DNA of 32,000 bases from Bermanella sp. WJH001 (GTDB lineage Bacteria; Pseudomonadota; Gammaproteobacteria; Pseudomonadales; Oceanobacteraceae): positions 965,511 through 997,510 of the forward strand of contig NZ_CP194951.1 of the NCBI RefSeq assembly GCF_030070105.2, given 5' to 3'. Both the position numbers and the translations under genes were made by a program. Numbering within the stretch: position 1 is the stretch's first letter; every line of letters begins with the position of its first letter. This document shows, piece after piece, positions 4,361 to 17,288 of the stretch. The notes below the pieces were generated by a model. The model was given only the letters and a program-made list of their open reading frames with translations, was not told where the DNA came from and did not search any database.

Positions 4361-5113
4361 ATGAATAAAGATAAAGAGCCAGAACAGTTAGCGTCTATTG
4401 CACTTAGCCGAGAGGAAATTGCCAGTCGTCAGCGCACTGCGGGTAAACTGAAACCACCCTCATCAAATACTACATCTACAAATGCGCCAAAGGTTTTGTG
4501 GGCATTAGTGGTTTTTGCCCTTGTTTTTTGTGTGGCTTTATTGGTGGAGCTTTATAGCGTTAAGCAGCAATCAGAGTTGCAATTGCAGGCGTTAACTATT
4601 TTACAAGAGAAGTTAACATCAACAGATGAACAAGCGAATTTATCGGTTGATGCGGTGAAAATTTTATTGCGTGAGCAAGACCATGAAATTAGAAAATTAT
4701 GGGATCTGGCTAATAAGCGAAATAAGGTTGATATCAGCAAAAATGCGGACCGATTAAACGATCAAAGTAAGTTGTTAACCAAGCACGCTGGCAAAATTGA
4801 TTTGTTGAATAAAGAGTTAGATAAAACTGAAAAACTGTTGTGTAGTGTCAGTACATCAAACAAACAAACTCAAGACAGTGTGAAAACCATAAAAAGTGAA
4901 TTAGAGCAGTCAAAAACCAATGTGTTACTGCTTGAGACCAAATTGGATTCAGGTTTGTCAGGTTTACCAAAAAATGTGGGTAAAACCCTAGAAGATCACG
5001 ACAAAGGCATTAAAGCTATGGATGCTACGCGCTTGCAATTAATGCGCAGGATTCAAGCACTTGAAAAAGAAATCAAAGCACTTAAGGCGCCAGCCCCCGC
5101 AGCACAACCTTAA
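4361..5113 (+). CDS. Hypothetical single-pass membrane protein with long coiled-coil
   Basis: TM segment VLWALVVFALVFCVALLVELYS followed by extended heptad-like regions and a terminator at 5129. Confidence 0.75.
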   Translation: MNKDKEPEQLASIALSREEIASRQRTAGKLKPPSSNTTSTNAPKVLWALVVFALVFCVALLVELYSVKQQSELQLQALTILQEKLTSTDEQANLSVDAVKILLREQDHEIRKLWDLANKRNKVDISKNADRLNDQSKLLTKHAGKIDLLNKELDKTEKLLCSVSTSNKQTQDSVKTIKSELEQSKTNVLLLETKLDSGLSGLPKNVGKTLEDHDKGIKAMDATRLQLMRRIQALEKEIKALKAPAPAAQP

Positions 5114-5128
5114 TGACGTGAATTCAAC

Positions 5129-5152
5129 AAAGCCCTTAATGGGCTTTTTTTT
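5129..5152 (+). terminator. Rho-independent terminator
   Basis: AAAGCCC TTAAT GGGCTTT followed by TTTTT. Confidence 0.8.
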
Positions 5153-5162
5153 GGATGAAAAA

Positions 5163-6056
5163 ATGGATAGCAGATTCGAAACGCACCTTGCGCTGCCGTG
5201 TTTTAAACATTTTGATGAGTTTTCTGATGCGGTTTTATCACAAGATAAATCTCATAGCATGGATGTGGCGTTAAATATTGGACTGCGCTGTGTAAATTTA
5301 TCCCAAGGGTTTGCGGTGGCGTATCGTTGTGCGCTGCAAGCTTTAGTGCCGCAATTAAACCAAACACAATGGGCGGCCATGTGTGTGACAGAGCAGCAGG
5401 GAAATCATCCGCGTCATATCCAAACTCAACTTTATTCAGATGGCACGGTGAGCGGTGAAAAGAGCTTTGTGTCAATGGCTGGTTTAGCACAACAGTTACT
5501 TGTGATTGCGAAAGATACCGGCATTCAAACCCATGATGCTCGCCCGGTACTAAAAGCAGTATTGGTGGATACGAATCAAACCCAAGTAAAAATAGATAAA
5601 ATGCCCGCCATGAAAATGCTGGCCGATATTCCTCACGGTCGTTTGAGTCTAGAACATGCGAGCTGCGAAGTTTTAGAGGGCGATGGTTATGCGCAGTACA
5701 GCAAAGTATTTAGAGTGCTTGAGGATGCGCATATTTTAATGGCAGCCAGTGCCTTTATTTTGAATACGGCTTATAGGGCCGGGCAGGTGGATGTGGTTGC
5801 CAAAGCACTGTCAATTATTGGTCTATTAAAAGGCATGGATTTGAATGCAGGGCCTTGGGTGCATATACAATTAGCACAGGCATTTGAGCAGTTTTTAACG
5901 TTAAGTAATGTGTTTGAAGAGGGTTTATCTGTTTATGATGAAACGCTTGCGCAGGCTTGGCTGGCGGATAAAAAATTATTTGCCATTGCCTCTGGTGCGC
6001 GCCAAGCACGCACCGAAAAGGCCATGAGTTGGCTTAAAGCTAAGGGCGAGGAGTAG
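5163..6056 (+). CDS. Hypothetical protein
   Basis: ORF track starts at 5061, but that start overlaps the upstream gene and terminator; ATG at 5163 (MDSRFETHLALPCF) is more likely. Confidence 0.7.
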   Translation: MDSRFETHLALPCFKHFDEFSDAVLSQDKSHSMDVALNIGLRCVNLSQGFAVAYRCALQALVPQLNQTQWAAMCVTEQQGNHPRHIQTQLYSDGTVSGEKSFVSMAGLAQQLLVIAKDTGIQTHDARPVLKAVLVDTNQTQVKIDKMPAMKMLADIPHGRLSLEHASCEVLEGDGYAQYSKVFRVLEDAHILMAASAFILNTAYRAGQVDVVAKALSIIGLLKGMDLNAGPWVHIQLAQAFEQFLTLSNVFEEGLSVYDETLAQAWLADKKLFAIASGARQARTEKAMSWLKAKGEE

Positions 6057-6480
6057 AAACGAGCCCCCCTTGGTTTAGCACACCTGTGCTGTAGTGATTA
6101 CCATAACTGGATTCGTAATAGGTGTTCACTGGAATATTATTTTGTATCTGAATAGCAGGGGCACTGCCTTCTGTCGGAATACGTTTGCTATCTTTCAGTG
6201 ATAATAATTCTTCATCTGAGGTATCAGGTATTAATTCAGAGGTTTCACCTTCCATTTCTAAACGCGTGTCATCCAGTTCATTTAAATCTAAACGATTTAA
6301 ATCGATACTTTGTGCCGTTGTGCGTTTATATCGATAGGTGCTGCTGTAGTCATAATGATGGGGGCGTTCTTTTGCTTGGTTAACCGCATCGATTAAGTCA
6401 TCTGCATAATAGTTATCCATGGGTTCAACCCCAAAACTGTATGCGCTTGCGAATACTAAAATAAATAATAACTTCTTCAT
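6040..6480 (-). CDS. Small secreted hypothetical protein, paralogue of 6514..7041
   Basis: Signal peptide MKKLLFILVFASAYSFG; shares YYxDD/YYGND, YxYxRTTxxSxDLxxL and the C-terminal STPRP with its neighbour. Confidence 0.75.
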   Translation of the reverse strand: MKKLLFILVFASAYSFGVEPMDNYYADDLIDAVNQAKERPHHYDYSSTYRYKRTTAQSIDLNRLDLNELDDTRLEMEGETSELIPDTSDEELLSLKDSKRIPTEGSAPAIQIQNNIPVNTYYESSYGNHYSTGVLNQGGLVSTPRP

Positions 6481-6513
6481 AAATATCTATTCTTATTTTT
6501 TGCGACGGTAAGG

Positions 6514-7041
6514 CTAAGGCCTTGGGGTACTGGTGATCGTGCCACTGGTACTTAAGTTATTGGTGGTCACTGTATCACCACGAGGGAATTCATGGAATAT
6601 TTCCTGAATGAATCGTTCGTTATTGGGCGGTATAACAGGAGGGGCTTGCAGAGTAATCGCCGTTTCTTTGTTGGGGGTAGATTGCTCTAAATTCTTTTGC
6701 AGGGTTTGTGCTTGTTCTTCATCGGGTATGGTATCAGGGGTGCTCACCTTACCCGCGGCTGTAGGTTGAAGCGCGCCTTCTAAGCGTTCTTGTTCGAGTG
6801 CTTGAACGCCTAATTTAGGCAAATCAAATGATTTTGACGTAGTGCGGTTGTACCAGTAACGATTAGAGTAATTTACATTACGGTCGTTTTGTTTGGCTTC
6901 TAATATAGCAGCGTGAATATCATTACCGTAATAATCTTCACCCATGCGAATGTTATCTTCAGCGAGGGCAAAAGGCAGTAACAAGCATACGGGGAGTACT
7001 AACAGCAGAAACTTGCCACTTTTTATTAATATTCGTTCCAT
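6514..7041 (-). CDS. Secreted hypothetical protein, paralogue of 6040..6480
   Basis: Signal peptide FLLLVLPVCLLLPFALA; EDYYGNDIHAAILEAKQ...YSNRYWYNRTTSKSFDLPKL...STPRP. Confidence 0.75.
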   Translation of the reverse strand: MERILIKSGKFLLLVLPVCLLLPFALAEDNIRMGEDYYGNDIHAAILEAKQNDRNVNYSNRYWYNRTTSKSFDLPKLGVQALEQERLEGALQPTAAGKVSTPDTIPDEEQAQTLQKNLEQSTPNKETAITLQAPPVIPPNNERFIQEIFHEFPRGDTVTTNNLSTSGTITSTPRP

Positions 7042-7117
7042 GATGTAAATTCCAGTCGCACTTATTTTGTTATTTTTTGTAATTATGTCATCATACCGGA
7101 ATATTTAAAGCGTGTTA

Positions 7118-7136
7118 CCTCTTAACCGTTAAGAGG
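7118..7136. promoter_or_regulatory. 19-bp palindrome in divergent intergenic region
   Basis: CCTCTTAAC C GTTAAGAGG, between the minus-strand gene starting at 7041 and the plus-strand gene starting at 7153. Confidence 0.5.
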
Positions 7137-7152
7137 CGCATAGAGTCTAGAA

Positions 7153-7848
7153 ATGATAAAAATAATAACAATGATTTTTGCAACATTCGTACTAATTAAT
7201 ACGTCTGGTTGTCTGCATATCTACCAATCCCTAGGGCACAATTTTGGTGCTTATATTGCTACCGTTTCGGGTAAAGAATATTCACAGGTGGGCAATCGCT
7301 GGGATTATGAAAATAAAGCACTGCTGTATGTCTATCGCCCTAATAGTCAGTGGGCGGCTGACGAAGTTGAAGCCCCTAGTTTTTATTTAGAAGACGAGCG
7401 CGTGTTTAATATCCGTGCAAATGGCTATACCTGGTTTGAGCTTGAACCTGGTGAATATGAAGTGGTGATGCGTCGTCCATTGATGGGTCTTGAAGGCATT
7501 GCCACCGAAAGTTTTGAATTTGATCTATCGCGCATTGCACAAATGAATCTGTCGGTTGAAGCCGATAAGGTTTATTTCTTACGTTATAGTGAAATTGATC
7601 CTCCTGAACTTGAACATCAAACCTTAAAAGAAGACATGCCTTTGGGTGATGGCCCGCTGATGTTGGTTTCAACGGACCTTGCTCATAGTGAATTAGCAGC
7701 CACACGCATGTTGCCAGAAGGTGGCCGTTTTATTAAATCGAAAGGCGCTCTTAGCGAAGATGAGCTAGAAGAAGTGTTCGATAGTCGTGTCATTGACTTA
7801 AGCCAAGAAGAGCCAGAAGACACAAATACCATGAAATGGTGGTGGTAA
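7153..7848 (+). CDS. Putative lipoprotein, DUF2846-like
   Basis: Lipobox-like NTSGC; ALLYVYRPN...GYTWFELEPGEYEV pattern. Confidence 0.7.
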   Translation: MIKIITMIFATFVLINTSGCLHIYQSLGHNFGAYIATVSGKEYSQVGNRWDYENKALLYVYRPNSQWAADEVEAPSFYLEDERVFNIRANGYTWFELEPGEYEVVMRRPLMGLEGIATESFEFDLSRIAQMNLSVEADKVYFLRYSEIDPPELEHQTLKEDMPLGDGPLMLVSTDLAHSELAATRMLPEGGRFIKSKGALSEDELEEVFDSRVIDLSQEEPEDTNTMKWWW

Positions 7849-9520: not shown

Positions 9521-9856
9521 ATGTTAACGGATTTACATTGTGAAATTTGTAATCGTGACTCGGTCAAAGTAACCGAGCAAGAGTGCGCTGAGTATTTAAA
9601 GTTTTTGCCTCACTGGCAAATAATTACAGAGAATAATGTACAAAAATTACGCCGTGAATTTAAATTTACTACATATCAAGCAGGATTGAACTTTACCAAT
9701 CAAGTGGCCGCGTTAGCAGAAGATGAAAACCACCATCCCGATCTGATATTGCAGTGGGGGCGCGTCACGGTAATATGGTGGACACATTCGATAAATGCTT
9801 TGCATAAAAATGATTTTATTTTAGCGGCTAAAACCGATGTTTTATATCAAGATTAA
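9521..9856 (+). CDS. phhB: 4a-hydroxytetrahydrobiopterin dehydratase (pterin-4a-carbinolamine dehydratase)
   Basis: LPHWQIITENNVQKLRREFKFTTYQAGLNFTNQVAALAEDENHHPDLILQWGRVTVIWWTHSINALHKNDFILAAKTD. Confidence 0.9.
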   Translation: MLTDLHCEICNRDSVKVTEQECAEYLKFLPHWQIITENNVQKLRREFKFTTYQAGLNFTNQVAALAEDENHHPDLILQWGRVTVIWWTHSINALHKNDFILAAKTDVLYQD

Positions 9857-10197
9857 CGGCTGAGCCGAATGGTACTTACTCTTAACACCCTGCCTTCACA
9901 GCCGTTGGTGATAATGGCCAGCGGCAAGCGGCTCTTGAAAGCCTCAAGGGCTAACAAAAAACGCCTTTGTGCCACCGCATCATATTCACTGTAAACCCGA
10001 TAAACATTGGAAGGCTTGCCACCGCAGTTGTGAATTTTATTACTTGAATGGATATCAAACGGAGCTTCTTCGTCATCTTCGCGCTGCTCTAAGGCACTTA
10101 CCACTAATCCCTCCACAATTTGATCGCTCGACCAAGATATGGCCGAAACTGTGCACATTAGCAGTGAGCAAATAAATATGCGTAATGACATTATCAT
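9853..10197 (-). CDS. Hypothetical secreted protein
   Basis: Signal-peptide-like N terminus (IFICSLLMCTVSAISWS); coding assignment rests on ORF integrity only. Confidence 0.55.
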   Translation of the reverse strand: MIMSLRIFICSLLMCTVSAISWSSDQIVEGLVVSALEQREDDEEAPFDIHSSNKIHNCGGKPSNVYRVYSEYDAVAQRRFLLALEAFKSRLPLAIITNGCEGRVLRVSTIRLSR

Positions 10198-10341
10198 CCT
10201 GTTTTAACTTTCTATTCTTATGTTGTGGCTATCGGCTTATTAACTAAAAACTAAAGCTTTTTCAAAACTAAACATAGCGTGTGCTGATGCTTGGACTATG
10301 CTTTGTTTATAAGTGTATGGCGAAAATGGATGATGCCAAGG

Positions 10342-11442
10342 ATGAAGCATAATAACGGACTTTATTCATATAAATATGTAATTTTATCGGCACTATTTTT
10401 TATAGTTTGCGCCATATATTCGTCATATTCTGTGTCTGAAACGCGAGTTGTCACATCGGATGTTCCTGGTTTTGGCTTACCGCCTACCATGTATGCTGGT
10501 TTTTCTCGGCTTCTTGATGACGAAAGTATTTTAGTACCAGAAGAATTGTTAGACGTTGATAAAAATATCAAACGCATTGCCTTTTATTTTAATGGCGATC
10601 GCCTTCACCGAAAAATCCCCAAACAAGTCCACCTGATGATCGAGAATAAACTACTTGGTAAGTTCATGGGCCTTGGTCGTTTTGAAGTGATCGACTGTAT
10701 TGAATGCCGCACCACTCGAGTGAACTTTGAAGATTCCCGCATGCTCATTAGTCAAAGTGCTCAAAGCAACCAAGATTTGCGTAATTTATCCAAAGAAGTG
10801 CGTGCCGATGCCTTCCTGTTATGGAGTGCCAGTGTGCACGAAGAAAAATTCACCATAAATTTACGTCTAGTCAGTGCAAAAAGTAACGAACTGGTTTGGT
10901 TAAAAGAATACGCGAAAAAAACAACCCGTGAGCAAGAAGAGCTTGAATTTGAAAGCATTGAATTAGAAATGGTGGTCAGCTCTTGGGGGCTGGCGGCTGA
11001 ACGAGATGGTGTGGGGGCAGTAGAGGATGCGTCACTCAGTGGTGTAACTGGGTTTGGTATCCGTCGCCGCGAGTACACCACGTTAAATAAAGATGTGGAA
11101 TACAGCTTGGGGGTTGAATACTTCCGTAACTTTTCAAGTACCGATGAATTTAATATCAGCGGTTTTAATTTAGAAGGGCGAATTTTTGTCAACATTTCAG
11201 CGTTGAAAGACTGGGTAAATACCAAGGCCTATGTGGGTATTGGCCAAGCATTTTTTAGTGGCAGCCACGGCTTAATGATGAAGTTTGGATTGGAGTTTCC
11301 CTTTGTGACCAACGGCTTTATGGCCATAGGAGCTGTGTATTTAGTCAAAGAAGAAGTGGAATGGGATAGCAACTCAGATTATGAGGACAGCTCAGAGTTT
11401 GGTGGTGCAGGTTTAGATTTAACACTTGGCTATCGCTTTTAA
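10342..11442 (+). CDS. Putative outer-membrane protein: CsgG/FlgO/TolB-N-like periplasmic domain plus C-terminal beta-barrel
   Basis: LSKEVRADAFLLWSASVHEEKFTINLRLVSAKSNELVWLKEYA resembles CsgG/FlgO-like domains. The last ~110 aa have alternating strands and end in GYRF. ATG at 10342 has AAGGA upstream. Confidence 0.65.
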   Translation: MKHNNGLYSYKYVILSALFFIVCAIYSSYSVSETRVVTSDVPGFGLPPTMYAGFSRLLDDESILVPEELLDVDKNIKRIAFYFNGDRLHRKIPKQVHLMIENKLLGKFMGLGRFEVIDCIECRTTRVNFEDSRMLISQSAQSNQDLRNLSKEVRADAFLLWSASVHEEKFTINLRLVSAKSNELVWLKEYAKKTTREQEELEFESIELEMVVSSWGLAAERDGVGAVEDASLSGVTGFGIRRREYTTLNKDVEYSLGVEYFRNFSSTDEFNISGFNLEGRIFVNISALKDWVNTKAYVGIGQAFFSGSHGLMMKFGLEFPFVTNGFMAIGAVYLVKEEVEWDSNSDYEDSSEFGGAGLDLTLGYRF

Positions 11443-11452
11443 GGAATAAAAT

Positions 11453-12082
11453 ATGAAAACCATTTTATTGCCAGTCTTGATCTCAATTAGCGTTTTAGCT
11501 GGCTGCTCCATTGAGCAATTTGCTATGGAAAAAGACCCCTTTGTGGCGCAAAAGCCAGATAAAGACGTGGACCCCTTAACCGTAGACAGTGCCGAATACG
11601 CAAAAAATAATCATGGTCTAGTGAATATTCACCGCCATGGCCCAGGCTATGATGTGATGATGATGTTAAATGCGGGTGAGAGTGACATTATTTTTAGCAT
11701 GGATTTACCAGTCGGTGGTGAAACCTATATGCCTGAAATATCCGAGCAAATGAAAGCCCAGCGTGAAAAAGGAAAAGCGCCAGATAGCATTGAAGAAGAA
11801 AAAGATTTCTTTAACGAAAAAGCACTTTCATTATTTTCAGATGCCACCAAACATATGTTAAGTGCCCAAGCCTTGTTTTATCGTAAGTCCTACTGGAAAG
11901 CATTAGAAGAAACCAATAAAGCCATGTCACTGGTGCCATCGTCTGCGCAAGCTCATGCCCTGAAGGGCAGTATCTATTACAAGATGGGCAGAAAAAAAGA
12001 CGCCAAGGTTTCTTGGCAGCAAGCATTACAATTAGACCCTTCTTTAACGGACGTTAAAGAGAGTTTGAAACTCGTGAAGTAA
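11453..12082 (+). CDS. TPR-containing lipoprotein
   Basis: Lipobox VLAGC; repeats AQALFYRKSYWKALEETNKAMSLVPSSAQAHALKGSIYYKMGRKKDAKVSWQQALQLDPS. Confidence 0.8.
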   Translation: MKTILLPVLISISVLAGCSIEQFAMEKDPFVAQKPDKDVDPLTVDSAEYAKNNHGLVNIHRHGPGYDVMMMLNAGESDIIFSMDLPVGGETYMPEISEQMKAQREKGKAPDSIEEEKDFFNEKALSLFSDATKHMLSAQALFYRKSYWKALEETNKAMSLVPSSAQAHALKGSIYYKMGRKKDAKVSWQQALQLDPSLTDVKESLKLVK

Positions 12083-12091
12083 GGGGCATCT

Positions 12092-14032
12092 ATGTTGAGA
12101 CAATATTTATTAGTAAGCCTTGCTCTAATTAGTATTTCGCTAATGGTTCAAGGAGCGAATAGTCCGGTAGAAGTGCAAACCAAAACCGACGACCTTGAAG
12201 AGATTCAATTAAAATCCCGCTTAGAAGAAAGCTTGGCTCGCGATATACAATCTTACTTAGGGCATAACCGCTTTATTGTGAATGTGAATGTAAGGCTTGA
12301 AAAAATACGTCAGGTGATCAAGAAAAAAAATAAACCAGAAACTAAACCTAATAAGGCATATCAGCCTACTTTTTTACCAAAGTTAACCTTTCCTAATTCG
12401 GTTGAATCAGATGACTCGGAACAAGTGGAAAGCCTGCCTGGTTTGCCGTTTGTTGATATTCCTGGTGATAAAGAAAAAGACGCAGAGCTTCAGTTTATGC
12501 GTGAGCAAATTGAACGCCTTCAAAATGAGCAGCGTCAGCCTAGGTGGCAAAACGGTGAAGGTGATGATGAGAATGGTAATGGCTCAACGGAGGAAACCGT
12601 AGGCGTATTTAATCGCATTGCAAAATTAAAAGTGACCCTTGCGGTTGAAGAAAGTATTAGCTCTGAGCAAGAGGCTTTTTTAAGAAATCTTGTTTATCAA
12701 AAAGCGGCGTTAAATGATTTACGTGGTGATGAATTAAAGATTGTTAAAACACAATTTTCTGCCTTACCCATCAGCGAAAAAGAAATGGCTAATTTGGCCT
12801 CCCCTTATACAGATGAGGCTGCACCTGCTCAAAGCTGGATGGATGAAAATTTTAACGCGCTATTATTAGGCTTGTTGAGTCTGCTTGCTTTGTTGTTAAT
12901 TAGTTTGATTATTTTGTCGTTACGTAAAAAGAATAAACCTAATGATTTACCAGCGGCCATACCTGTGCCTAAGGAACTCAGCGCTGAAAACCCCAAGCCA
13001 GCAGAGCAAGAAGGCCCAGATAATAAACAGATAATGCAAAAAACACGTCAAGAGATTATCTCTTTAGGCTTGGGCCAGCCTCAACATGTGCAAGGCACCA
13101 TGGATCAGTTGTTAAGCCAAGAAGAAAAAATCCCAATGGCGGCCTCTATTTACAAGGTATTAGGGCGCAGTTTATTTCGTTCTATTTTTCCTAATGTGGA
13201 ACAACTGCAACTGCAAAGTATCATGGCTCATTTAGCGGATCAGGCTCCTGATGAAGACCAGCAATTTCAAGATACCCAAGACTTTTATCAGTTGTTGCAA
13301 AAAGCGGTGCAAGAAACAGATGAAGTGAAATCTCATCCGTTTGAATTTTTAGGTAAGTTAAACGACAGCCAAGTGCTGTATTTGATGCAGCATGAAGATG
13401 CACGTATCCAGGCTTTAGTGATTAGTCAGTTGCAAGCACAACAAGCTGCAAGGGTTTTAAATCGAATCAATGAAAAACGCCAAGCCCAAGTGATTGCCGA
13501 ACTTGGCCAGTTTGAAACCTTCCCTCTTGATACCTTTAAGGATGTAGCAGATCGCTTAGCAAAAGCGGCACTTAAGGTTCCAAGCTTTGAAAATGTAAAC
13601 GCTGATGGCCTACACATGCTGATGAATATGTTAGATAACATGAATTCAACAGAAGAAAACAAAGTGCTAAAACGTTTAAAACAAGATAAGCCCGATACCT
13701 TTTATAAATTGCGCCAACAATATTTTACCTTTGCGGATATTGCTAAAACACCAAGGCAAATTCTTAGTAATGCCTTACGTGAAGTGGAACGTAGTTTTAT
13801 TGGGCGTGCCATTTGCGGCACACCGGATGAGTTTAAAATCCATGTTTTATCCTCGCTTACACCAAAACTCAAAGCTTTAGCGCAAGAAGATCTTAAACGC
13901 TATGAGGGACGAATAGCAGCAAAAGACATTGAACCAGCCCGTAAAGCCATTGTGCATAAACTGCGTGAGTACATTCATACGGGTAAATTTTCGATGGATG
14001 AGTTGCAAGCTAAAAAGCAGGCTGAATCATGA
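12092..14032 (+). CDS. FliF-like/FliG-like fusion membrane protein
   Basis: Signal peptide; FliF-like LEESLARDIQSYLGHNRFIVNVNVRLE and IAKLKVTLAVEESISSEQEAFLRNLVYQKAALNDLRGDELKIVKTQF; TM FNALLLGLLSLLALLLISLIIL; FliG-M-like HPFEFLGKLNDSQVLYLMQHEDARIQALVISQLQAQQAARVLNRI and FliG-C-like region to the end. Confidence 0.75.
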   Translation: MLRQYLLVSLALISISLMVQGANSPVEVQTKTDDLEEIQLKSRLEESLARDIQSYLGHNRFIVNVNVRLEKIRQVIKKKNKPETKPNKAYQPTFLPKLTFPNSVESDDSEQVESLPGLPFVDIPGDKEKDAELQFMREQIERLQNEQRQPRWQNGEGDDENGNGSTEETVGVFNRIAKLKVTLAVEESISSEQEAFLRNLVYQKAALNDLRGDELKIVKTQFSALPISEKEMANLASPYTDEAAPAQSWMDENFNALLLGLLSLLALLLISLIILSLRKKNKPNDLPAAIPVPKELSAENPKPAEQEGPDNKQIMQKTRQEIISLGLGQPQHVQGTMDQLLSQEEKIPMAASIYKVLGRSLFRSIFPNVEQLQLQSIMAHLADQAPDEDQQFQDTQDFYQLLQKAVQETDEVKSHPFEFLGKLNDSQVLYLMQHEDARIQALVISQLQAQQAARVLNRINEKRQAQVIAELGQFETFPLDTFKDVADRLAKAALKVPSFENVNADGLHMLMNMLDNMNSTEENKVLKRLKQDKPDTFYKLRQQYFTFADIAKTPRQILSNALREVERSFIGRAICGTPDEFKIHVLSSLTPKLKALAQEDLKRYEGRIAAKDIEPARKAIVHKLREYIHTGKFSMDELQAKKQAES

Positions 14033-14826
14033 TTAGCTTTAGTACGTTAATTGGCATAACCGCAGGTATTGGCTTATTTATTATGGCCATTATCAGTAGC
14101 ACTGATAATTACATGATGTTTATCAGTCTTGCCAGCGCCATGATGGTGATTGGTAGTACCTTTGCAGCGTCGTTGATTAGCTTTAGTTTTTTAGAGGTGA
14201 TGCATGCCATCAAAGCCATGTTTCAAACATTAGCGGCAAGTCGAACCACCCAAGGGCATTTACGTGACTTAGTAAAACGCTTTGTGGAATTTAGTCGTAT
14301 TTATCGTGACGGCGGTATTTCTGCCCTTGAGGACAGTTTAACCAAGCAAGAGAAAAAAGATGAATTTCTGGCGTTAGGTTTGGAGCTAATGGGTTCGGGT
14401 TACAAGCAAAGTGATATTCGCGTGATTATGGGGGATGCCATGGACAGTCATTGGCAGCGCCAAAGTTTAGAAGGCAAAATCCTCAATACCATGGGAGTGT
14501 ATGCACCGGGCTTTGGCATGGTGGGTACAATCGTAGGCTTGATCATCATGCTTGATAACATGGGTGATGATATGGCGAACTTGGGTAAGGGTCTTGCCTT
14601 GGCGTTAATCACCACCTTGTATGGTGTGTTATTGGCCAATTTGTTATTTAAACCCACCGCTGCCCAGGTGACCGAAAAACAAGAGCAGGAATATTTCCGT
14701 AATCAACTGATCACAGATGGGTTTGTATTGCTGGCCGAAAAGAAAGATGCCCTTGTGATGCAAGACCGTCTCAACGCTTATGTTAAACCCACTAAGCGCT
14801 TTACCATAGTTGAAGCCAATGAGTGA
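14029..14826 (+). CDS. MotA/PomA-like stator subunit
   Basis: Four hydrophobic segments; YAPGFGMVGTIVGLIIMLDNMGDDMANLGKGLALALITTLYGVLLANLLF. Confidence 0.9.
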   Translation: MISFSTLIGITAGIGLFIMAIISSTDNYMMFISLASAMMVIGSTFAASLISFSFLEVMHAIKAMFQTLAASRTTQGHLRDLVKRFVEFSRIYRDGGISALEDSLTKQEKKDEFLALGLELMGSGYKQSDIRVIMGDAMDSHWQRQSLEGKILNTMGVYAPGFGMVGTIVGLIIMLDNMGDDMANLGKGLALALITTLYGVLLANLLFKPTAAQVTEKQEQEYFRNQLITDGFVLLAEKKDALVMQDRLNAYVKPTKRFTIVEANE

Positions 14827-15499
14827 TAAGGCCTACAAACGAGGTTTAAGACGTCGCCGGGCCACGTTTGATGCCGATGGTGAAGGCTGGTTGGTCACCT
14901 ATGCGGATGCCATAACCTTGTTATTGGCGTTTTTTGTTATGATTCTTTCAGTGTCTGACTTAAACCAAGGCAAGATAGAGGCATTAAAAGAAGGCTTGGC
15001 CAGTATTATTTCAGGCAAGCAAGCCGAAACCCCGTTTAACGATATTAAAGATGCGCTTAATGACATTGTTGCGCAGCACGATATGCAAGATAACGTGACG
15101 GTGGATATCGACATGAAAGGGGTAAGGGTAGAGTTCTCAAACTTCTCTCTTTATCAATCCGGCAGTGCCGCCATCAAGCCTGAAGCCTTGCCCATGCTGG
15201 CAGAGGTTAGCAAGGTCATCAAAGATACCAGTTCAGCCACCCATTTGATTGAAATCGAAGGCCATACTGATGATGTGCCCATCAGCACAGAGCGTTTCCC
15301 CTCAAATTGGGAGCTAAGCGCCTCACGTGCCAGCAATGTGGTGAAATACCTCATGGGTAAAGGTGTTAATAAGGAGCGCTTAAAGGCTTCTGGTTACGCA
15401 GATTCTCGTCCTAAGGCTAAACTTGAAGAAGGACAGGCCTTCACAGAAGAAGACAGGGCGGCAAATCGGCGTGTGGTGATTTATGTTCGCCGCTTCTGA
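14819..15499 (+). CDS. MotB-like stator subunit with OmpA peptidoglycan-binding domain
   Basis: WLVTYADAITLLLAFFVMILSVSDLNQGK with the conserved channel Asp; IEIEGHTDDVPIS...NWELSASRASNVVKYL...NRRVVIYVRR. ATG at 14819 overlaps the MotA-like stop. Confidence 0.9.
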   Translation: MSDKAYKRGLRRRRATFDADGEGWLVTYADAITLLLAFFVMILSVSDLNQGKIEALKEGLASIISGKQAETPFNDIKDALNDIVAQHDMQDNVTVDIDMKGVRVEFSNFSLYQSGSAAIKPEALPMLAEVSKVIKDTSSATHLIEIEGHTDDVPISTERFPSNWELSASRASNVVKYLMGKGVNKERLKASGYADSRPKAKLEEGQAFTEEDRAANRRVVIYVRRF

Positions 15500-15572
15500 G
15501 GCCCATTTATCAGGGTGTAACGAGAAAGTTTGTAAAAATATGTGTATATGCCTGAATATGGGGCAATCTTAA

Positions 15573-17288
<1,716 letters not shown>

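What the first reader, a model, noticed from the sequence alone, without database searches (positions are those of the whole stretch)
10342..15499. Candidate non-flagellar rotary motor: CsgG-like barrel protein, TPR lipoprotein, FliF/FliG fusion, MotA, MotB
Five co-directional, tightly packed genes encode parts spanning the whole envelope. They are an outer-membrane protein with a CsgG/FlgO-like periplasmic domain, a TPR lipoprotein, an inner-membrane protein with FliF-like periplasmic and FliG-like cytoplasmic regions, and a MotAB stator with peptidoglycan-binding domain. Gaps between genes are -8 to +10 bp. Both sides are non-flagellar (fumarase/phhB on the left, pyrG/eno on the right). No FliM/FliN, export apparatus, rod, hook or filament gene is in the window. 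The set is consistent with a minimal rotor plus stator coupled to an outer-membrane component, of unknown output.
Basis: partly seen in the sequence, partly recalled or inferred. Interest (0 to 1): 0.93.

Follow-up and report, generated by a model that had tools for sequence, protein, structure and literature searches.

The report
Stand-alone flagellar-type rotor–stator gene module
Five adjacent genes in a marine Bermanella genome encode a natural FliF–FliG fusion, its own MotA/MotB stator, a TPR lipoprotein and an outer-membrane protein; the set lies away from flagellar genes and recurs in very distant bacteria, so it looks like an undescribed envelope machine built from flagellar motor parts.

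Summary
Window 10342-15499 carries five co-directional, tightly packed or overlapping genes:
- g1: an outer-membrane protein, an 8-stranded OmpX/OmpA-type barrel plus an LpoB/TolB-N/FlgO-class periplasmic domain. It is not a CsgG-type barrel.
- g2: a TPR lipoprotein.
- g3: a 646-aa protein with a FliF RBM3/collar-like periplasmic domain, one transmembrane helix and a full FliG-like cytoplasmic part.
- g4/g5: a PomA/MotP-like MotA and a MotB with plug, channel Asp and OmpA domain.

No other flagellar gene is in the window.

The five-gene order is kept in all 40 related genomic loci found. In Oleispira antarctica the module lies about 715 kb from the complete flagellar array. About 150 protein clusters (50% identity) share the fusion architecture. 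In 11 distant contexts the fusion sits beside the same TPR lipoprotein (9/11), MotAB (7/11) and g1 (4/11), in three different gene orders.

The main rotor–stator charge pairs are kept. The FliM-binding EHPQR motif is lost.

Best reading: a rod-less, export-less, non-switching rotor–stator machine, probably Na+-driven, linked to the outer membrane. Its output is unknown, and rotation and independence from the flagellum are untested. I found no published description.

The parts
9853..10197 (-). orfX: a 114-aa small protein with an N-terminal hydrophobic signal-like segment, transcribed divergently from g1. It may be a clade-specific accessory gene.
   Evidence: ORF. Conserved at this position in most Oceanospirillales-type loci at 31-67% identity, and in Oleispira (CCK74679.1). 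Not found in distant contexts. No Pfam domain.
10342..11442 (+). g1: outer-membrane protein. It has an N-terminal signal/anchor helix, a periplasmic alpha/beta domain of the LpoB-C/TolB-N/FlgO class with an invariant CxxC (C119, C122), and a C-terminal 8-stranded beta-barrel ending in ...GYRF.
   Evidence: AlphaFold model with pLDDT 80. Foldseek: NspA 7.6e-6, OmpX, OmpA transmembrane domain, Ail; LpoB-C 7.8e-5; TolB 1.1e-4. Pfam FlgO is sub-threshold. Invariant residues. Family members sit in distant modules: L046 at 1e-131, L056 at 2e-72, L044 at 1e-8, L055 at 2.5e-5.
11453..12082 (+). g2: lipoprotein (lipobox LAGC, Ser at +2, so probably outer-membrane) with a C-terminal TPR domain.
   Evidence: Pfam TPR_1 3e-9, TPR_2, TPR_11. 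An orthologous TPR lipoprotein with the shared motif A.ALKGSIY.K.G...W..AL.LDP sits next to the fusion gene in 9 of 11 distant contexts.
12092..14032 (+). g3: natural FliF(RBM3/collar)-TM-FliG(N,M,C) fusion, 646 aa, the proposed rotor subunit. It has an N-terminal signal-like helix at aa 2-21.
   Evidence: Pfam and NCBIfam; profile against PDB sequences; model and Foldseek.
12164..12757 (+). g3 periplasmic domain (aa 25-222). It is a ring-building-motif fold with two long strands (61-78, 166-186) flanking a disordered loop that carries an invariant LPGLP (115-119). An invariant RGD lies at 211-213.
   Evidence: Secondary structure. Foldseek to FliF S-ring/RBM3: 8z5v 1.1e-3, 8ftf 5.7e-3, 6sd1 1.3e-2, TM about 0.45-0.49. 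Profile hit to FliF 353-533 at E=3.5e-5. Invariant columns.
12824..12925 (+). g3 transmembrane helix (aa 245-278).
   Evidence: Predicted helix 245-278 with a hydrophobic core LLLGLLSLLALLLISLIILSL.
13022..14020 (+). g3 cytoplasmic FliG-like region (aa 311-643). The torque helix has K592 (R281 equivalent) and E599/D600 (D288/D289 equivalents). The hinge reads YFTF. The EHPQR motif is degenerate (E435-D-A-R).
   Evidence: Foldseek to full-length FliG 8umx_B at 1.8e-9 over 315 columns; 1lkv; FliG-C bound to MotAB 8ucs_H at TM 0.81. FliG 3hjl at 5.6e-21. Residue mapping.
14029..14826 (+). g4: MotA/PomA-type stator A subunit, flagellar-type with a large cytoplasmic domain. R and E at the PomA R88/E96 positions are kept. 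Thr is kept at the PomA T158/T185/T186 positions. D114 is replaced by Ser and R232 by Leu.
   Evidence: Pfam. NCBIfam MotP, MotA and PomA models at 3.9e-48 to 7.1e-40, all below equivalog cut-offs. PDB hits: C. sporogenes MotA 2.6e-34 and PomA 1.2e-29, with alignments. Residue table.
14810..15499 (+). g5: MotB-type stator B subunit with plug, transmembrane helix with the channel Asp (TYADAITLL), and an OmpA-like peptidoglycan-binding domain. The start is TTG 14810 or ATG 14819.
   Evidence: Pfam MotB_plug 2.1e-14 and OmpA 8.5e-18. NCBIfam MotD at 185 bits, below the 283 cut-off. PDB MotB/PomB hits. Alignment.

Best explanation
The five genes form one operon-like module. It encodes a self-contained, envelope-spanning machine built from the torque-generating core of the flagellar motor, without the rest of the flagellum.

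Proposed mechanism, with each step marked:
- Shown by homology: g3 is a single-chain equivalent of the C-terminal half of FliF (RBM3/collar plus the second transmembrane helix) joined to FliG.
- Inferred: like FliF RBM3 and like engineered FliF-FliG fusions, g3 assembles into a membrane ring that presents a ring of FliG C-domains in the cytoplasm.
- Shown by homology and inferred in function: g4/g5 form a flagellar-type MotA/MotB unit anchored to peptidoglycan through the OmpA-like domain.
- Inferred from conserved residues: ion flow turns MotA against the FliG-like torque helix. The ion is probably Na+, because the three PomA selectivity threonines are present. The contact would use the two conserved charge pairs, g4 R and E (PomA R88/E96) with g3 D600 and K592 (E. 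coli FliG D289/R281).
- Inferred from motif loss: there is no FliM-binding EHPQR motif and no FliM or FliN gene nearby, so the device should not switch direction.
- Speculative: with no export gate, rod, hook or filament, the work is probably delivered inside the envelope. The invariant LPGLP loop at the top of the periplasmic collar is a plausible ligand for the TPR domain of the outer-membrane lipoprotein g2. That lipoprotein, together with the barrel-anchored LpoB/TolB-N-like protein g1, would couple the ring to the outer membrane or peptidoglycan.

The physiological output is not known.
For: Composition:
- Pfam and NCBIfam domain calls.
- PDB sequence hits: FliG 5.6e-21 and FliF 3.5e-5 for the g3 family profile; MotA/PomA and MotB/PomB for g4 and g5.
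- AlphaFold models.
- Foldseek: full-length FliG at 1.8e-9, FliF RBM3/S-ring at about 1e-3 to 1e-2 with probability 1.0, FliG-C in complex with MotAB at TM 0.81. For g1, OmpX/OmpA barrels and LpoB/TolB.

Functional linkage:
- The same five-gene order occurs in 40 of 40 loci across seven genera, while g3 has diverged to 35-40% identity. In Gynuella (L038) none of the window's flanking genes were found, yet the five genes stay together.
- The fusion architecture occurs in about 150 clusters at 50% identity with E<=1e-30; about 130 of the best 150 are at least 530 aa.
- In 11 sampled distant contexts (locus GC 30-61% in the ten measured), the g2-type TPR lipoprotein is adjacent in 9, MotA+MotB in 7 and g1 in 4.
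- The full set appears in three orders: g1-g2-g3-A-B, g3-g1-g2-A-B and A-B-g1-g2-g3.

Separateness from the flagellum:
- No flagellar gene is in the window.
- In Oleispira the module is about 715 kb from the complete flagellar array.
- g3 lacks RBM1/RBM2.
- The EHPQR motif is degenerate in all 13 family members examined: the R160 position is kept in only one, and no member keeps the whole motif.

Interface:
- The R281 equivalent is K or R in 12 of 13 fusions.
- The R88 equivalent is R or K in 7 of 9 module MotAs, and the E96 equivalent is E or D in 6 of 9.
- The secondary charges are lost on both partners: FliG K264 in 13 of 13 and R297 in 11 of 13; PomA D114 in 8 of 9 and R232 in 9 of 9. This is what a dedicated, co-evolved pair would show.

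Other points:
- Engineered FliF-FliG fusions assemble rings (PMC11481574, PMC6079021).
- The Na+ inference rests on T158/T185/T186, described as conserved in all sodium-driven stators and replaced by Ala at 158 and 185 in H+ stators (PMC10374538). These positions are Thr in g4 and across the module MotAs.
Against: - No experiment or multimer model shows that g3 forms a ring or rotates. The monomer model has pTM of only 0.30, and the FliF-domain fold matches are modest (TM 0.45-0.49, E about 1e-3 to 1e-2).
- The window's own YscJ_FliF_C score is below Pfam's cut-off.
- All cultured hosts named here (Oleispira, Thalassolituus, Bermanella) are flagellated. I could not test whether any genome with the module lacks flagella.
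- In 4 of 11 distant contexts MotAB is not adjacent, and in one the fusion stands alone.
- The proposed g2-loop contact and any output are speculation.
- The three threonines are also present in C. sporogenes MotA, whose ion I did not establish, so the ion assignment is soft.
Confidence: 0.55

Rival explanations
1. The module is an accessory of the host's ordinary polar flagellum. g4/g5 would be a second flagellar stator, as in dual-stator species. g1 and g2 would be periplasmic scaffold or ring proteins like FlgO/FlgP/FlgT or PflA/PflB. g3 would be a docking or storage ring for stators.
For: - All named hosts are flagellated. The Oleispira genome paper itself reads 'MotAB and PomAB' as two flagellar stator systems, and the module's genes are annotated 'Flagellar MotA/MotB protein' there.
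- g1 has a weak FlgO-type hit.
- FlgO/FlgP-class domains and TPR proteins are known flagellar scaffold parts (10.64898/2025.12.02.691832; PMC12054838, listed).
- g4/g5 belong to the flagellar-type stator class.
Against: - The stator genes travel with their own FliG-bearing membrane protein across very distant lineages and through gene-order shuffling. That would be unnecessary if their rotor were the canonical FliG.
- The module is unlinked from the flagellar regulon in Oleispira, about 715 kb away.
- Module MotAs have lost D114 and R232, which PMC10374538 reports as important for PomA-FliG coupling.
- No conserved sigma-28 promoter was found.
- g1 lacks the lipidated Cys that anchors FlgO.
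Confidence: 0.2
2. The module is a non-rotary, Tol-Pal/TonB-like energy transducer. MotAB would act on individual, non-ring g3 molecules through the FliG-like domain. g3 would relay conformational work across the periplasm to g2 and g1 for outer-membrane integrity, division or transport.
For: - The parts list parallels Tol-Pal: a 5:2-type motor, a single-pass inner-membrane protein, an outer-membrane partner with a TolB-N-like domain, a TPR protein (as CpoB is), and an OmpA-like peptidoglycan anchor.
- SPOR-domain genes (septal peptidoglycan binders, from general knowledge) lie beside the module in L044 and L056.
- No ring has been demonstrated.
Against: - The periplasmic domain of g3 is of the ring-building RBM3/collar type, whose known relatives form 33- to 35-mer rings.
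- TolA and TonB engage their motors through transmembrane helices, not through a FliG domain (general knowledge).
- g4 scores only at about E=0.003 against the TolQ and ExbB models.
- The conserved torque-helix charge pairs argue for the flagellar style of engagement.
Confidence: 0.2
3. The genes are a decaying relic of a second flagellar system, or an anti-phage Zorya-like MotAB system, and not a working motor of a new type.
For: - MotAB homologues do occur in Zorya defence systems, and g5 hits ZorB models at 5e-20.
- Flagellar gene remnants are known in several lineages (general knowledge).
Against: - All five reading frames are intact, and many residues are invariant across sequences that are only 35% identical. 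The module is retained across lineages with 30-61% GC.
- ZorA matches at only 14.8 bits, and no ZorC/ZorD-like genes or any other PADLOC hit were found.
- The ZorB hits are weaker than those to flagellar MotB and MotD.
Confidence: 0.03

Closest known systems
Flagellar motor core: FliF MS-ring, FliG, and MotAB/PomAB stator
   Same: - The periplasmic domain of g3 matches FliF RBM3/collar, and its cytoplasmic part matches FliG N, M and C.
- The torque-helix R281 and D288/D289 equivalents and the MotA R90/E98 equivalents are kept.
- g5 has the MotB plug, channel Asp and OmpA-like anchor.
- The Na+-type threonine triad of PomA is present.
   Different: - The FliF and FliG parts are one polypeptide.
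- RBM1/RBM2, the part of FliF that houses the export gate, is absent.
- The FliM-binding EHPQR motif is absent.
- There are no FliM or FliN, export apparatus, rod, hook or filament genes nearby.
- The module is unlinked from the true flagellar cluster in Oleispira.
- All NCBIfam flagellar equivalog cut-offs are missed.
- The secondary interface charges are lost on both partners.
Chlamydiaceae natural FliF-FliG fusion (Bergeron 2016, PeerJ 4:e1718; PMC4768692)
   Same: It is a natural single-chain FliF-FliG protein in a non-flagellar setting, with a shortened periplasmic region made of ring-building motifs.
   Different: - The chlamydial protein is about 330 aa. It keeps an RBM2-like domain rather than RBM3/collar, and it carries only a FliG-M-like cytosolic region.
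- No stator gene is listed among the few flagellar genes that paper names for Chlamydia, and the protein is proposed to work with the injectisome.
- The present family is about 600-700 aa, includes the torque-generating FliG C-domain, and travels with MotAB, a TPR lipoprotein and an outer-membrane protein.
- I did not compare the sequences directly.
Engineered FliF-FliG fusions of Salmonella and Vibrio (PMC6079021; PMC11481574)
   Same: They show that covalent FliF-FliG chains still assemble MS/S-rings. This supports the idea that a natural fusion can form a rotor ring.
   Different: They are laboratory constructs of full-length FliF and FliG inside a complete flagellar system.
Vibrio H-ring lipoproteins FlgO/FlgP (with FlgT), and TPR scaffold proteins PflA/PflB of Campylobacterota
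   Same: - The periplasmic domain of g1 belongs to the same broad fold class as FlgO.
- These are outer-membrane-attached ring or scaffold proteins that accompany a rotor and stator.
- TPR proteins are used as periplasmic scaffolds.
   Different: - g1 is anchored by its own 8-stranded barrel, not by a lipid. It scores below the FlgO cut-off and carries an invariant CxxC.
- g2 is a short lipoprotein that matches the FlcA and BatC TPR models only weakly and far below their cut-offs; PflA and PflB were not tested.
- No LP-ring, T-ring or rod genes accompany them.
Other 5:2 ion-driven motors with envelope outputs: TolQR-TolA-TolB-Pal-CpoB, ExbBD-TonB, GldLM/T9SS, AglRQS-Glt, ZorAB
   Same: The logic is the same: an inner-membrane ion-driven motor coupled to outer-membrane partners. 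There are parallels in the TolB-N-like domain, the TPR protein and the OmpA-like anchor.
   Different: None of those systems uses a FliG-type rotor or a FliF-type ring. g4 is of the flagellar stator class, not the TolQ/ExbB class. There is no Zorya signature.

Membership tests
FliG (flagellar motor switch protein) | FliG middle and C-terminal domains, with an overall FliG fold | tested here: met
   Pfam FliG_M 1.9e-12 and FliG_C 2.8e-17. PDB FliG 3hjl at 5.6e-21. Foldseek 8umx_B at 1.8e-9 over 315 of 328 residues.
FliG (flagellar motor switch protein) | Charged torque-helix residues that meet MotA (E. coli K264, R281, D288, D289, R297) | tested here: inconclusive
   R281 maps to K592, D288 to E599 and D289 to D600, all kept. 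K264 maps to C575 and R297 to Ala, both lost. Across the family, R281 is kept in 12 of 13 members, K264 in 0 of 13 and R297 in 2 of 13.
FliG (flagellar motor switch protein) | EHPQR motif that binds FliM | tested here: not met
   The window protein reads E435-D-A-R with Thr at the R160 position. Only the Glu is conserved across the family.
FliG (flagellar motor switch protein) | Equivalog-level sequence score and location among flagellar genes | tested here: not met
   TIGR00207 scores 73 bits against a 226.7 cut-off. No flagellar neighbours in the window. About 715 kb from the flagellar array in Oleispira.
FliF (MS-ring protein) | RBM3 domain with beta-collar, followed by the C-terminal transmembrane helix | tested here: met
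   The family profile hits FliF 6scn residues 353-533 at E=3.5e-5. Foldseek to RBM3/S-ring entries 8z5v, 8z4g, 8ftf and 6sd1 with probability 1.0 and TM 0.45-0.49. PF08345 is on record for relatives. The window protein itself scores 21.1 bits against a 23.8 cut-off.
FliF (MS-ring protein) | RBM1 and RBM2 (SctJ-homology region, PF01514) that surround the export gate | tested here: not met
   No PF01514 hit. The periplasmic part is only about 220 aa with a single RBM-like domain.
FliF (MS-ring protein) | Assembly into a ring of about 33-35 subunits | not testable with these tools
   No multimer prediction or experiment was available. The monomer model pTM is 0.30.
Flagellar-type MotA/MotB stator (MotAB, PomAB, MotPS) | MotA with four transmembrane helices and a large cytoplasmic domain carrying the conserved Arg and Glu; MotB with plug, channel Asp and OmpA-like domain | tested here: met
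   Pfam. PDB MotA 2.6e-34 and PomA 1.2e-29, with R88 and E96 aligned to Arg and Glu. MotB plug 2.1e-14, 'TYADAITLL', OmpA 8.5e-18.
Flagellar-type MotA/MotB stator (MotAB, PomAB, MotPS) | Equivalog-level score to a named flagellar stator family | tested here: not met
   Best hits are MotP at 163.8 bits against a 394 cut-off and MotD at 185.2 bits against a 283 cut-off. D114 and R232 of PomA are not kept.
Na+-driven stators (PomAB/MotPS type) | Thr at PomA positions 158, 185 and 186 | tested here: met
   Thr, Thr, Thr in g4 and in 8 of 8 other module MotAs, with one Ser at position 185. The criterion comes from PMC10374538. Ion use itself was not tested.
CsgG (curli secretion channel) | Lipoprotein with a PF03783 domain forming a nonameric 36-strand barrel | tested here: not met
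   No CsgG Pfam hit and no lipobox in g1. The predicted barrel is 8-stranded, of the OmpX/OmpA/NspA type.
FlgO (Vibrio H-ring lipoprotein) | PF17680 domain above cut-off; N-terminal lipidated Cys; encoded with flgP and flgT | tested here: not met
   18.5 bits against a 22.6 cut-off, covering 43 residues. No lipobox is evident by eye. No flgP or flgT nearby.
Tol-Pal / ExbBD-TonB | TolQ/ExbB-class A subunit; TolA or TonB partner | tested here: not met
   TolQ E=0.0036 and ExbB E=0.0034, against 1e-40 to 1e-48 for flagellar stator models.
Zorya anti-phage system | ZorA with a long tail, ZorB, plus ZorC/D or ZorE-G | tested here: not met
   ZorA at 14.8 bits only. No hits for g1-g3. The ZorB hits reflect generic MotB homology.
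Chlamydiaceae FliF-FliG fusion | About 330 aa; RBM2-like periplasmic region; FliG-M-only cytosolic part | not tested
   Compared only through the published description. Length and domain content differ.

The most novel reading that the evidence does not exclude
A widespread, previously undescribed class of bacterial envelope machine. It would be a rod-less, secretion-less, non-switching rotary motor in which a ring of FliF(RBM3)-FliG fusion proteins is turned by dedicated, probably Na+-coupled, MotAB stators. It would act on the outer membrane or peptidoglycan through a TPR lipoprotein and a barrel-anchored LpoB/TolB-N-like protein, independently of the flagellum. It could be an exaptation of flagellar parts, or a surviving relative of a rotor that predates coupling to type III export.
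Probability: 0.45. Interest if true: 0.92.

Novelty: new variant of a known kind. Interest (0 to 1): 0.82.

Why it matters
In the systems surveyed here, FliG and flagellar-type MotAB are known to work together only inside flagella. A conserved module that keeps only the torque-generating core would be a second biological use of the flagellar rotor–stator pair.

It would matter in four ways:
- It offers a much simpler system (five genes) for studying torque generation and stator recruitment.
- It bears directly on models of flagellar origin: whether a rotor can exist without the export apparatus, and whether this is an intermediate or an offshoot.
- It points to an unknown envelope function in abundant marine oil-degrading bacteria (Oleispira, Thalassolituus, Bermanella) and in other lineages.
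- It warns that 'second stator' and 'FliG' annotations in these genomes are probably wrong.

Tried and rejected
1. A sigma-28-like promoter (TTTAGTTT-N11-GCCGATAG, minus strand, about 10231-10257, upstream of orfX) looked like a link to the flagellar regulon. It is present only in the window and its 96%-identical relative L001, and not in the other loci, so I treated it as chance. The generic sigma-70 and terminator scan showed nothing above background for promoters.
2. Zorya or another defence system: rejected by the PADLOC scan.
3. A profile search of the 5.8-billion-protein set with 27 very divergent family members returned almost nothing useful, only P0165. Taxonomy of distant members therefore stayed thin. 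Cluster look-ups gave only 'Bacteroidetes bacterium', 'Deltaproteobacteria bacterium RIFOXYA12', 'Gammaproteobacteria bacterium' and 'Saccharospirillaceae bacterium'.
5. The Oleispira paper's supplement, which might name its 'MotAB' locus tags, is not held.
6. Six literature searches found no description of this module. The nearest is the Chlamydia FliF-FliG fusion. One search was malformed.
7. g1 against PDB by sequence gave only noise. Its nature came from the predicted fold.

Full report
**What is in the sequence**

Window 10342-15499 holds five + strand ORFs with spacings of +10, +9, -4 and -8 bp, or -17 bp if g5 starts at TTG 14810.

Pfam and NCBIfam scans give:
- g2: TPR repeats behind a lipobox (LAGC).
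- g3 (646 aa): FliG_M at 1.9e-12 and FliG_C at 2.8e-17, above cut-off, plus YscJ_FliF_C at 21.1 bits, just under the 23.8 cut-off.
- g4: MotA_ExbB at 5e-22. Its best NCBIfam models are MotP, MotA and PomA, all below equivalog cut-offs.
- g5: MotB plug at 2.1e-14 and OmpA at 8.5e-18. Its best model is MotD at 185 bits against a 283 cut-off.
- g1: only a sub-threshold FlgO hit.

The remaining ORFs of at least 100 aa fall into two groups. The annotated ones are housekeeping: Maf, SodB, fumarase, PhhB, CTP synthase, enolase, FtsB, IspD/F, TruD, SurE, Pcm, an M23/LysM peptidase, an RpoS-like sigma factor, RmuC and an ABC transporter. The others have no Pfam hit (625-927, 1497-2429, 4361-5113, 6040-6480, 6514-7041) or only a marginal one (5061-6056). 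None carries a flagellar domain.

Exact matches of g2 and g4 to WP_283789752.1 and WP_283789754.1 place the window in Bermanella sp. WJH001 or a near-identical strain.

**The 646-aa protein**

A profile of 60 family members hits FliG of Aquifex (3hjl, 5.6e-21; residues 117-326) and Thermotoga. Separately, it hits Salmonella FliF residues 353-533 at E=3.5e-5.

The AlphaFold model (pLDDT 73) shows these elements in order:
- an N-terminal signal-like helix;
- a periplasmic beta-alpha-beta...beta-alpha-beta domain, with two long strands flanking a disordered loop;
- one transmembrane helix (aa 245-278);
- an all-helical cytoplasmic region.

Foldseek aligns the cytoplasmic region to full-length FliG (8umx_B, 1.8e-9, 315 of 328 residues). 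It aligns the C-domain to FliG-C bound to MotAB (8ucs_H, TM 0.81). It aligns the periplasmic domain to FliF RBM3/S-ring structures (8z5v, 8z4g, 8ftf, 6sd1; E about 1e-3 to 1e-2, probability 1.0, TM 0.45-0.49).

So g3 corresponds to the C-terminal half of FliF, covalently joined to FliG. It lacks RBM1/RBM2: there is no PF01514 hit, and the periplasmic part is only about 220 residues.

**The other parts**

- g1 (model pLDDT 80) has an 8-stranded barrel matching NspA, OmpX, OmpA and Ail. Its periplasmic domain matches LpoB-C and TolB.
- g4 aligns over its full length with C. sporogenes MotA and Vibrio PomA.
- g5 aligns with MotB and PomB and keeps the plug, the channel Asp and the peptidoglycan-binding domain.

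**Conservation**

A scan of one genome per species found 40 loci, in Bermanella, Oceaniserpentilla, Thalassolituus, Oleispira, Oceanobacter, Bacterioplanoides, Gynuella and unnamed relatives. In every locus that spans the region, the order g1-g2-g3-g4-g5 is kept. Across these loci g3 falls to 35-40% identity, while the neighbouring fumarase stays at 84-88%. In Gynuella (L038) none of the window's flanking genes were found, but the five genes stay together.

An exhaustive profile search of 1.84 billion cluster representatives found 151 clusters at E<=1e-30. About 130 of the best 150 are at least 530 aa and match from the end of the periplasmic domain through FliG-C.

I looked up 11 of these distant lineages. 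Locus GC was 30-61% in the ten measured. Source names were a Bacteroidetes MAG, a Deltaproteobacteria MAG and a Gammaproteobacteria MAG. The tallies were:
- a g2-type TPR lipoprotein with the same C-terminal motif is adjacent in 9 of 11;
- MotA+MotB is adjacent in 7 of 11;
- a g1 family member is adjacent in 4 of 11.

The full five-gene set occurs in three orders: g1-g2-g3-A-B (L046, L055), g3-g1-g2-A-B (L044) and A-B-g1-g2-g3 (L056). Retention through rearrangement is strong evidence of functional linkage.

**Relation to the flagellum**

Oleispira antarctica RB-8 carries the module at about 552-557 kb. The genes are annotated 'FliG-like protein' and 'Flagellar MotA/MotB protein'. Its genome paper places the whole flagellar and chemotaxis array at 1,272,898-1,348,300, and interprets 'MotAB and PomAB' as two flagellar stators (PMC3759055). 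The module is therefore not the ordinary MS-ring and C-ring. The 'MotAB' of that paper may well be this pair, but I could not check this.

**Residue-level checks (criteria from PMC12505986 and PMC10374538)**

- The two principal rotor-stator charge pairs are kept. The g3 residues K592, E599 and D600 correspond to FliG R281, D288 and D289. The g4 Arg and Glu correspond to PomA R88 and E96.
- Across the family, the R281 equivalent is K or R in 12 of 13 members.
- Secondary charges are missing on both partners. FliG K264 is lost in 13 of 13 and R297 in 11 of 13. PomA D114 is lost in 8 of 9 and R232 in 9 of 9. This pattern is expected for a dedicated, co-evolved pair.
- The FliM-binding EHPQR motif is reduced to its Glu. 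This fits the absence of FliM and FliN, and implies no switching.
- The MFxF hinge is kept as Y[FY]xF.
- The three threonines that form the PomA Na+ site are present in all module MotAs.

**Interpretation**

The best-supported reading is a self-contained rotor-stator machine derived from, or related to, the flagellar motor core. In this reading a g3 ring is turned by PG-anchored, probably Na+-coupled g4/g5 units. It has no export gate, rod, hook, filament or switch. It would be connected to the outer membrane by g2 and g1.

The steps differ in how well they are supported:
- Homology and conservation are shown.
- Ring formation, rotation and the ion are inferred.
- The proposed contact between the invariant LPGLP loop and the TPR domain, and any output, are speculation.

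The rivals are:
- an accessory of the polar flagellum, with a second stator plus scaffold (confidence 0.2);
- a non-rotary Tol-Pal-like transducer (0.2);
- a relic or a defence system (0.03).

**Prior knowledge**

Six full-text searches found no description of this module. The nearest precedents are:
- the natural Chlamydiaceae FliF-FliG fusion, which is about 330 aa, has RBM2-like and FliG-M parts only, and has no stator gene among the flagellar genes listed for Chlamydia (PMC4768692);
- engineered FliF-FliG fusions that assemble rings (PMC11481574, PMC6079021).

The recent survey of MotAB diversity mentions FliG only once, in its introduction, and says nothing about a FliF-FliG fusion or a FliG-linked stator outside flagella (PMC12505986). 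Subscription-only literature was not searchable, so earlier mention cannot be excluded.

**Verdict**

I rate it a new variant of a known kind: flagellar-type rotor and stator in a new architecture and context. Interest is 0.82.

Noticed in passing
window 9853-10197 (- strand): A small 114-aa ORF with an N-terminal hydrophobic signal-like segment lies divergent from g1. It is conserved at this position in most related loci (31-67% identity) and in Oleispira (CCK74679.1), but not in distant lineages. It may be a clade-specific accessory of the module.
   Followed up: partly
window ~10231-10257 (- strand): A sigma-28-like promoter match (TTTAGTTT-N11-GCCGATAG) lies upstream of orfX. It is present only in the window and its closest relative L001, so it is probably chance.
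   Followed up: yes
window 10696-10707 (g1 residues C119 and C122): An invariant CxxC (CIECRTT) sits in the periplasmic domain of g1. It is also present in distant g1 homologues (L056 CFECKTT, L046 CTECNKT). Its role is unknown; a disulfide or metal site is possible.
   Followed up: no
window 12434-12448 and 12722-12730 (g3 residues 115-119 and 211-213): An invariant LPGLP lies in the disordered loop of the collar-like insertion, and an invariant RGD lies at the end of the periplasmic domain. Both are conserved even in family members with about 20% identity.
   Followed up: partly
L041 6456-6797; L044 2278-2652: PilZ-domain genes lie beside or near the module in two unrelated distant lineages. 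This hints at c-di-GMP control, as with YcgR at flagellar motors.
   Followed up: no
L044 3423-6151; L056 4191-5663: TPR/Sel1 and SPOR-domain proteins are encoded just upstream of the module in two distant lineages. In L056 an exopolysaccharide export cluster (Wza/Wzc/Wzy-like) follows the module. In L049 a MoxR-DUF58-VWA (Bat-like) set follows MotB.
   Followed up: no
L014 (JBLHVV010000051.1); protein P0455: L014 is labelled as a Crocinitomicaceae MAG, but its fumarase is 93% identical to the window's, which suggests misbinning. A 'Pseudomonas sp. HK3' MotA (WP_446737140.1) falls in the same 90% cluster as the window's g4, which suggests a mislabelled strain.
   Followed up: no
window 4361-7848: A run of uncharacterised genes lies upstream of fumarase: two ORFs with no or marginal Pfam hits, two small - strand ORFs, and a DUF2846 protein. 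The run is syntenic with Oleispira (L052 3881-7363) but absent from distant module contexts.
   Followed up: partly
L052 15368-19086 (Oleispira) compared with window 15500-15656: In the Oleispira/Thalassolituus tier the module is followed by a 635-aa protein with no Pfam hit and an Aq_1262-family protein. In the Bermanella tier pyrG-eno follows directly.
   Followed up: no
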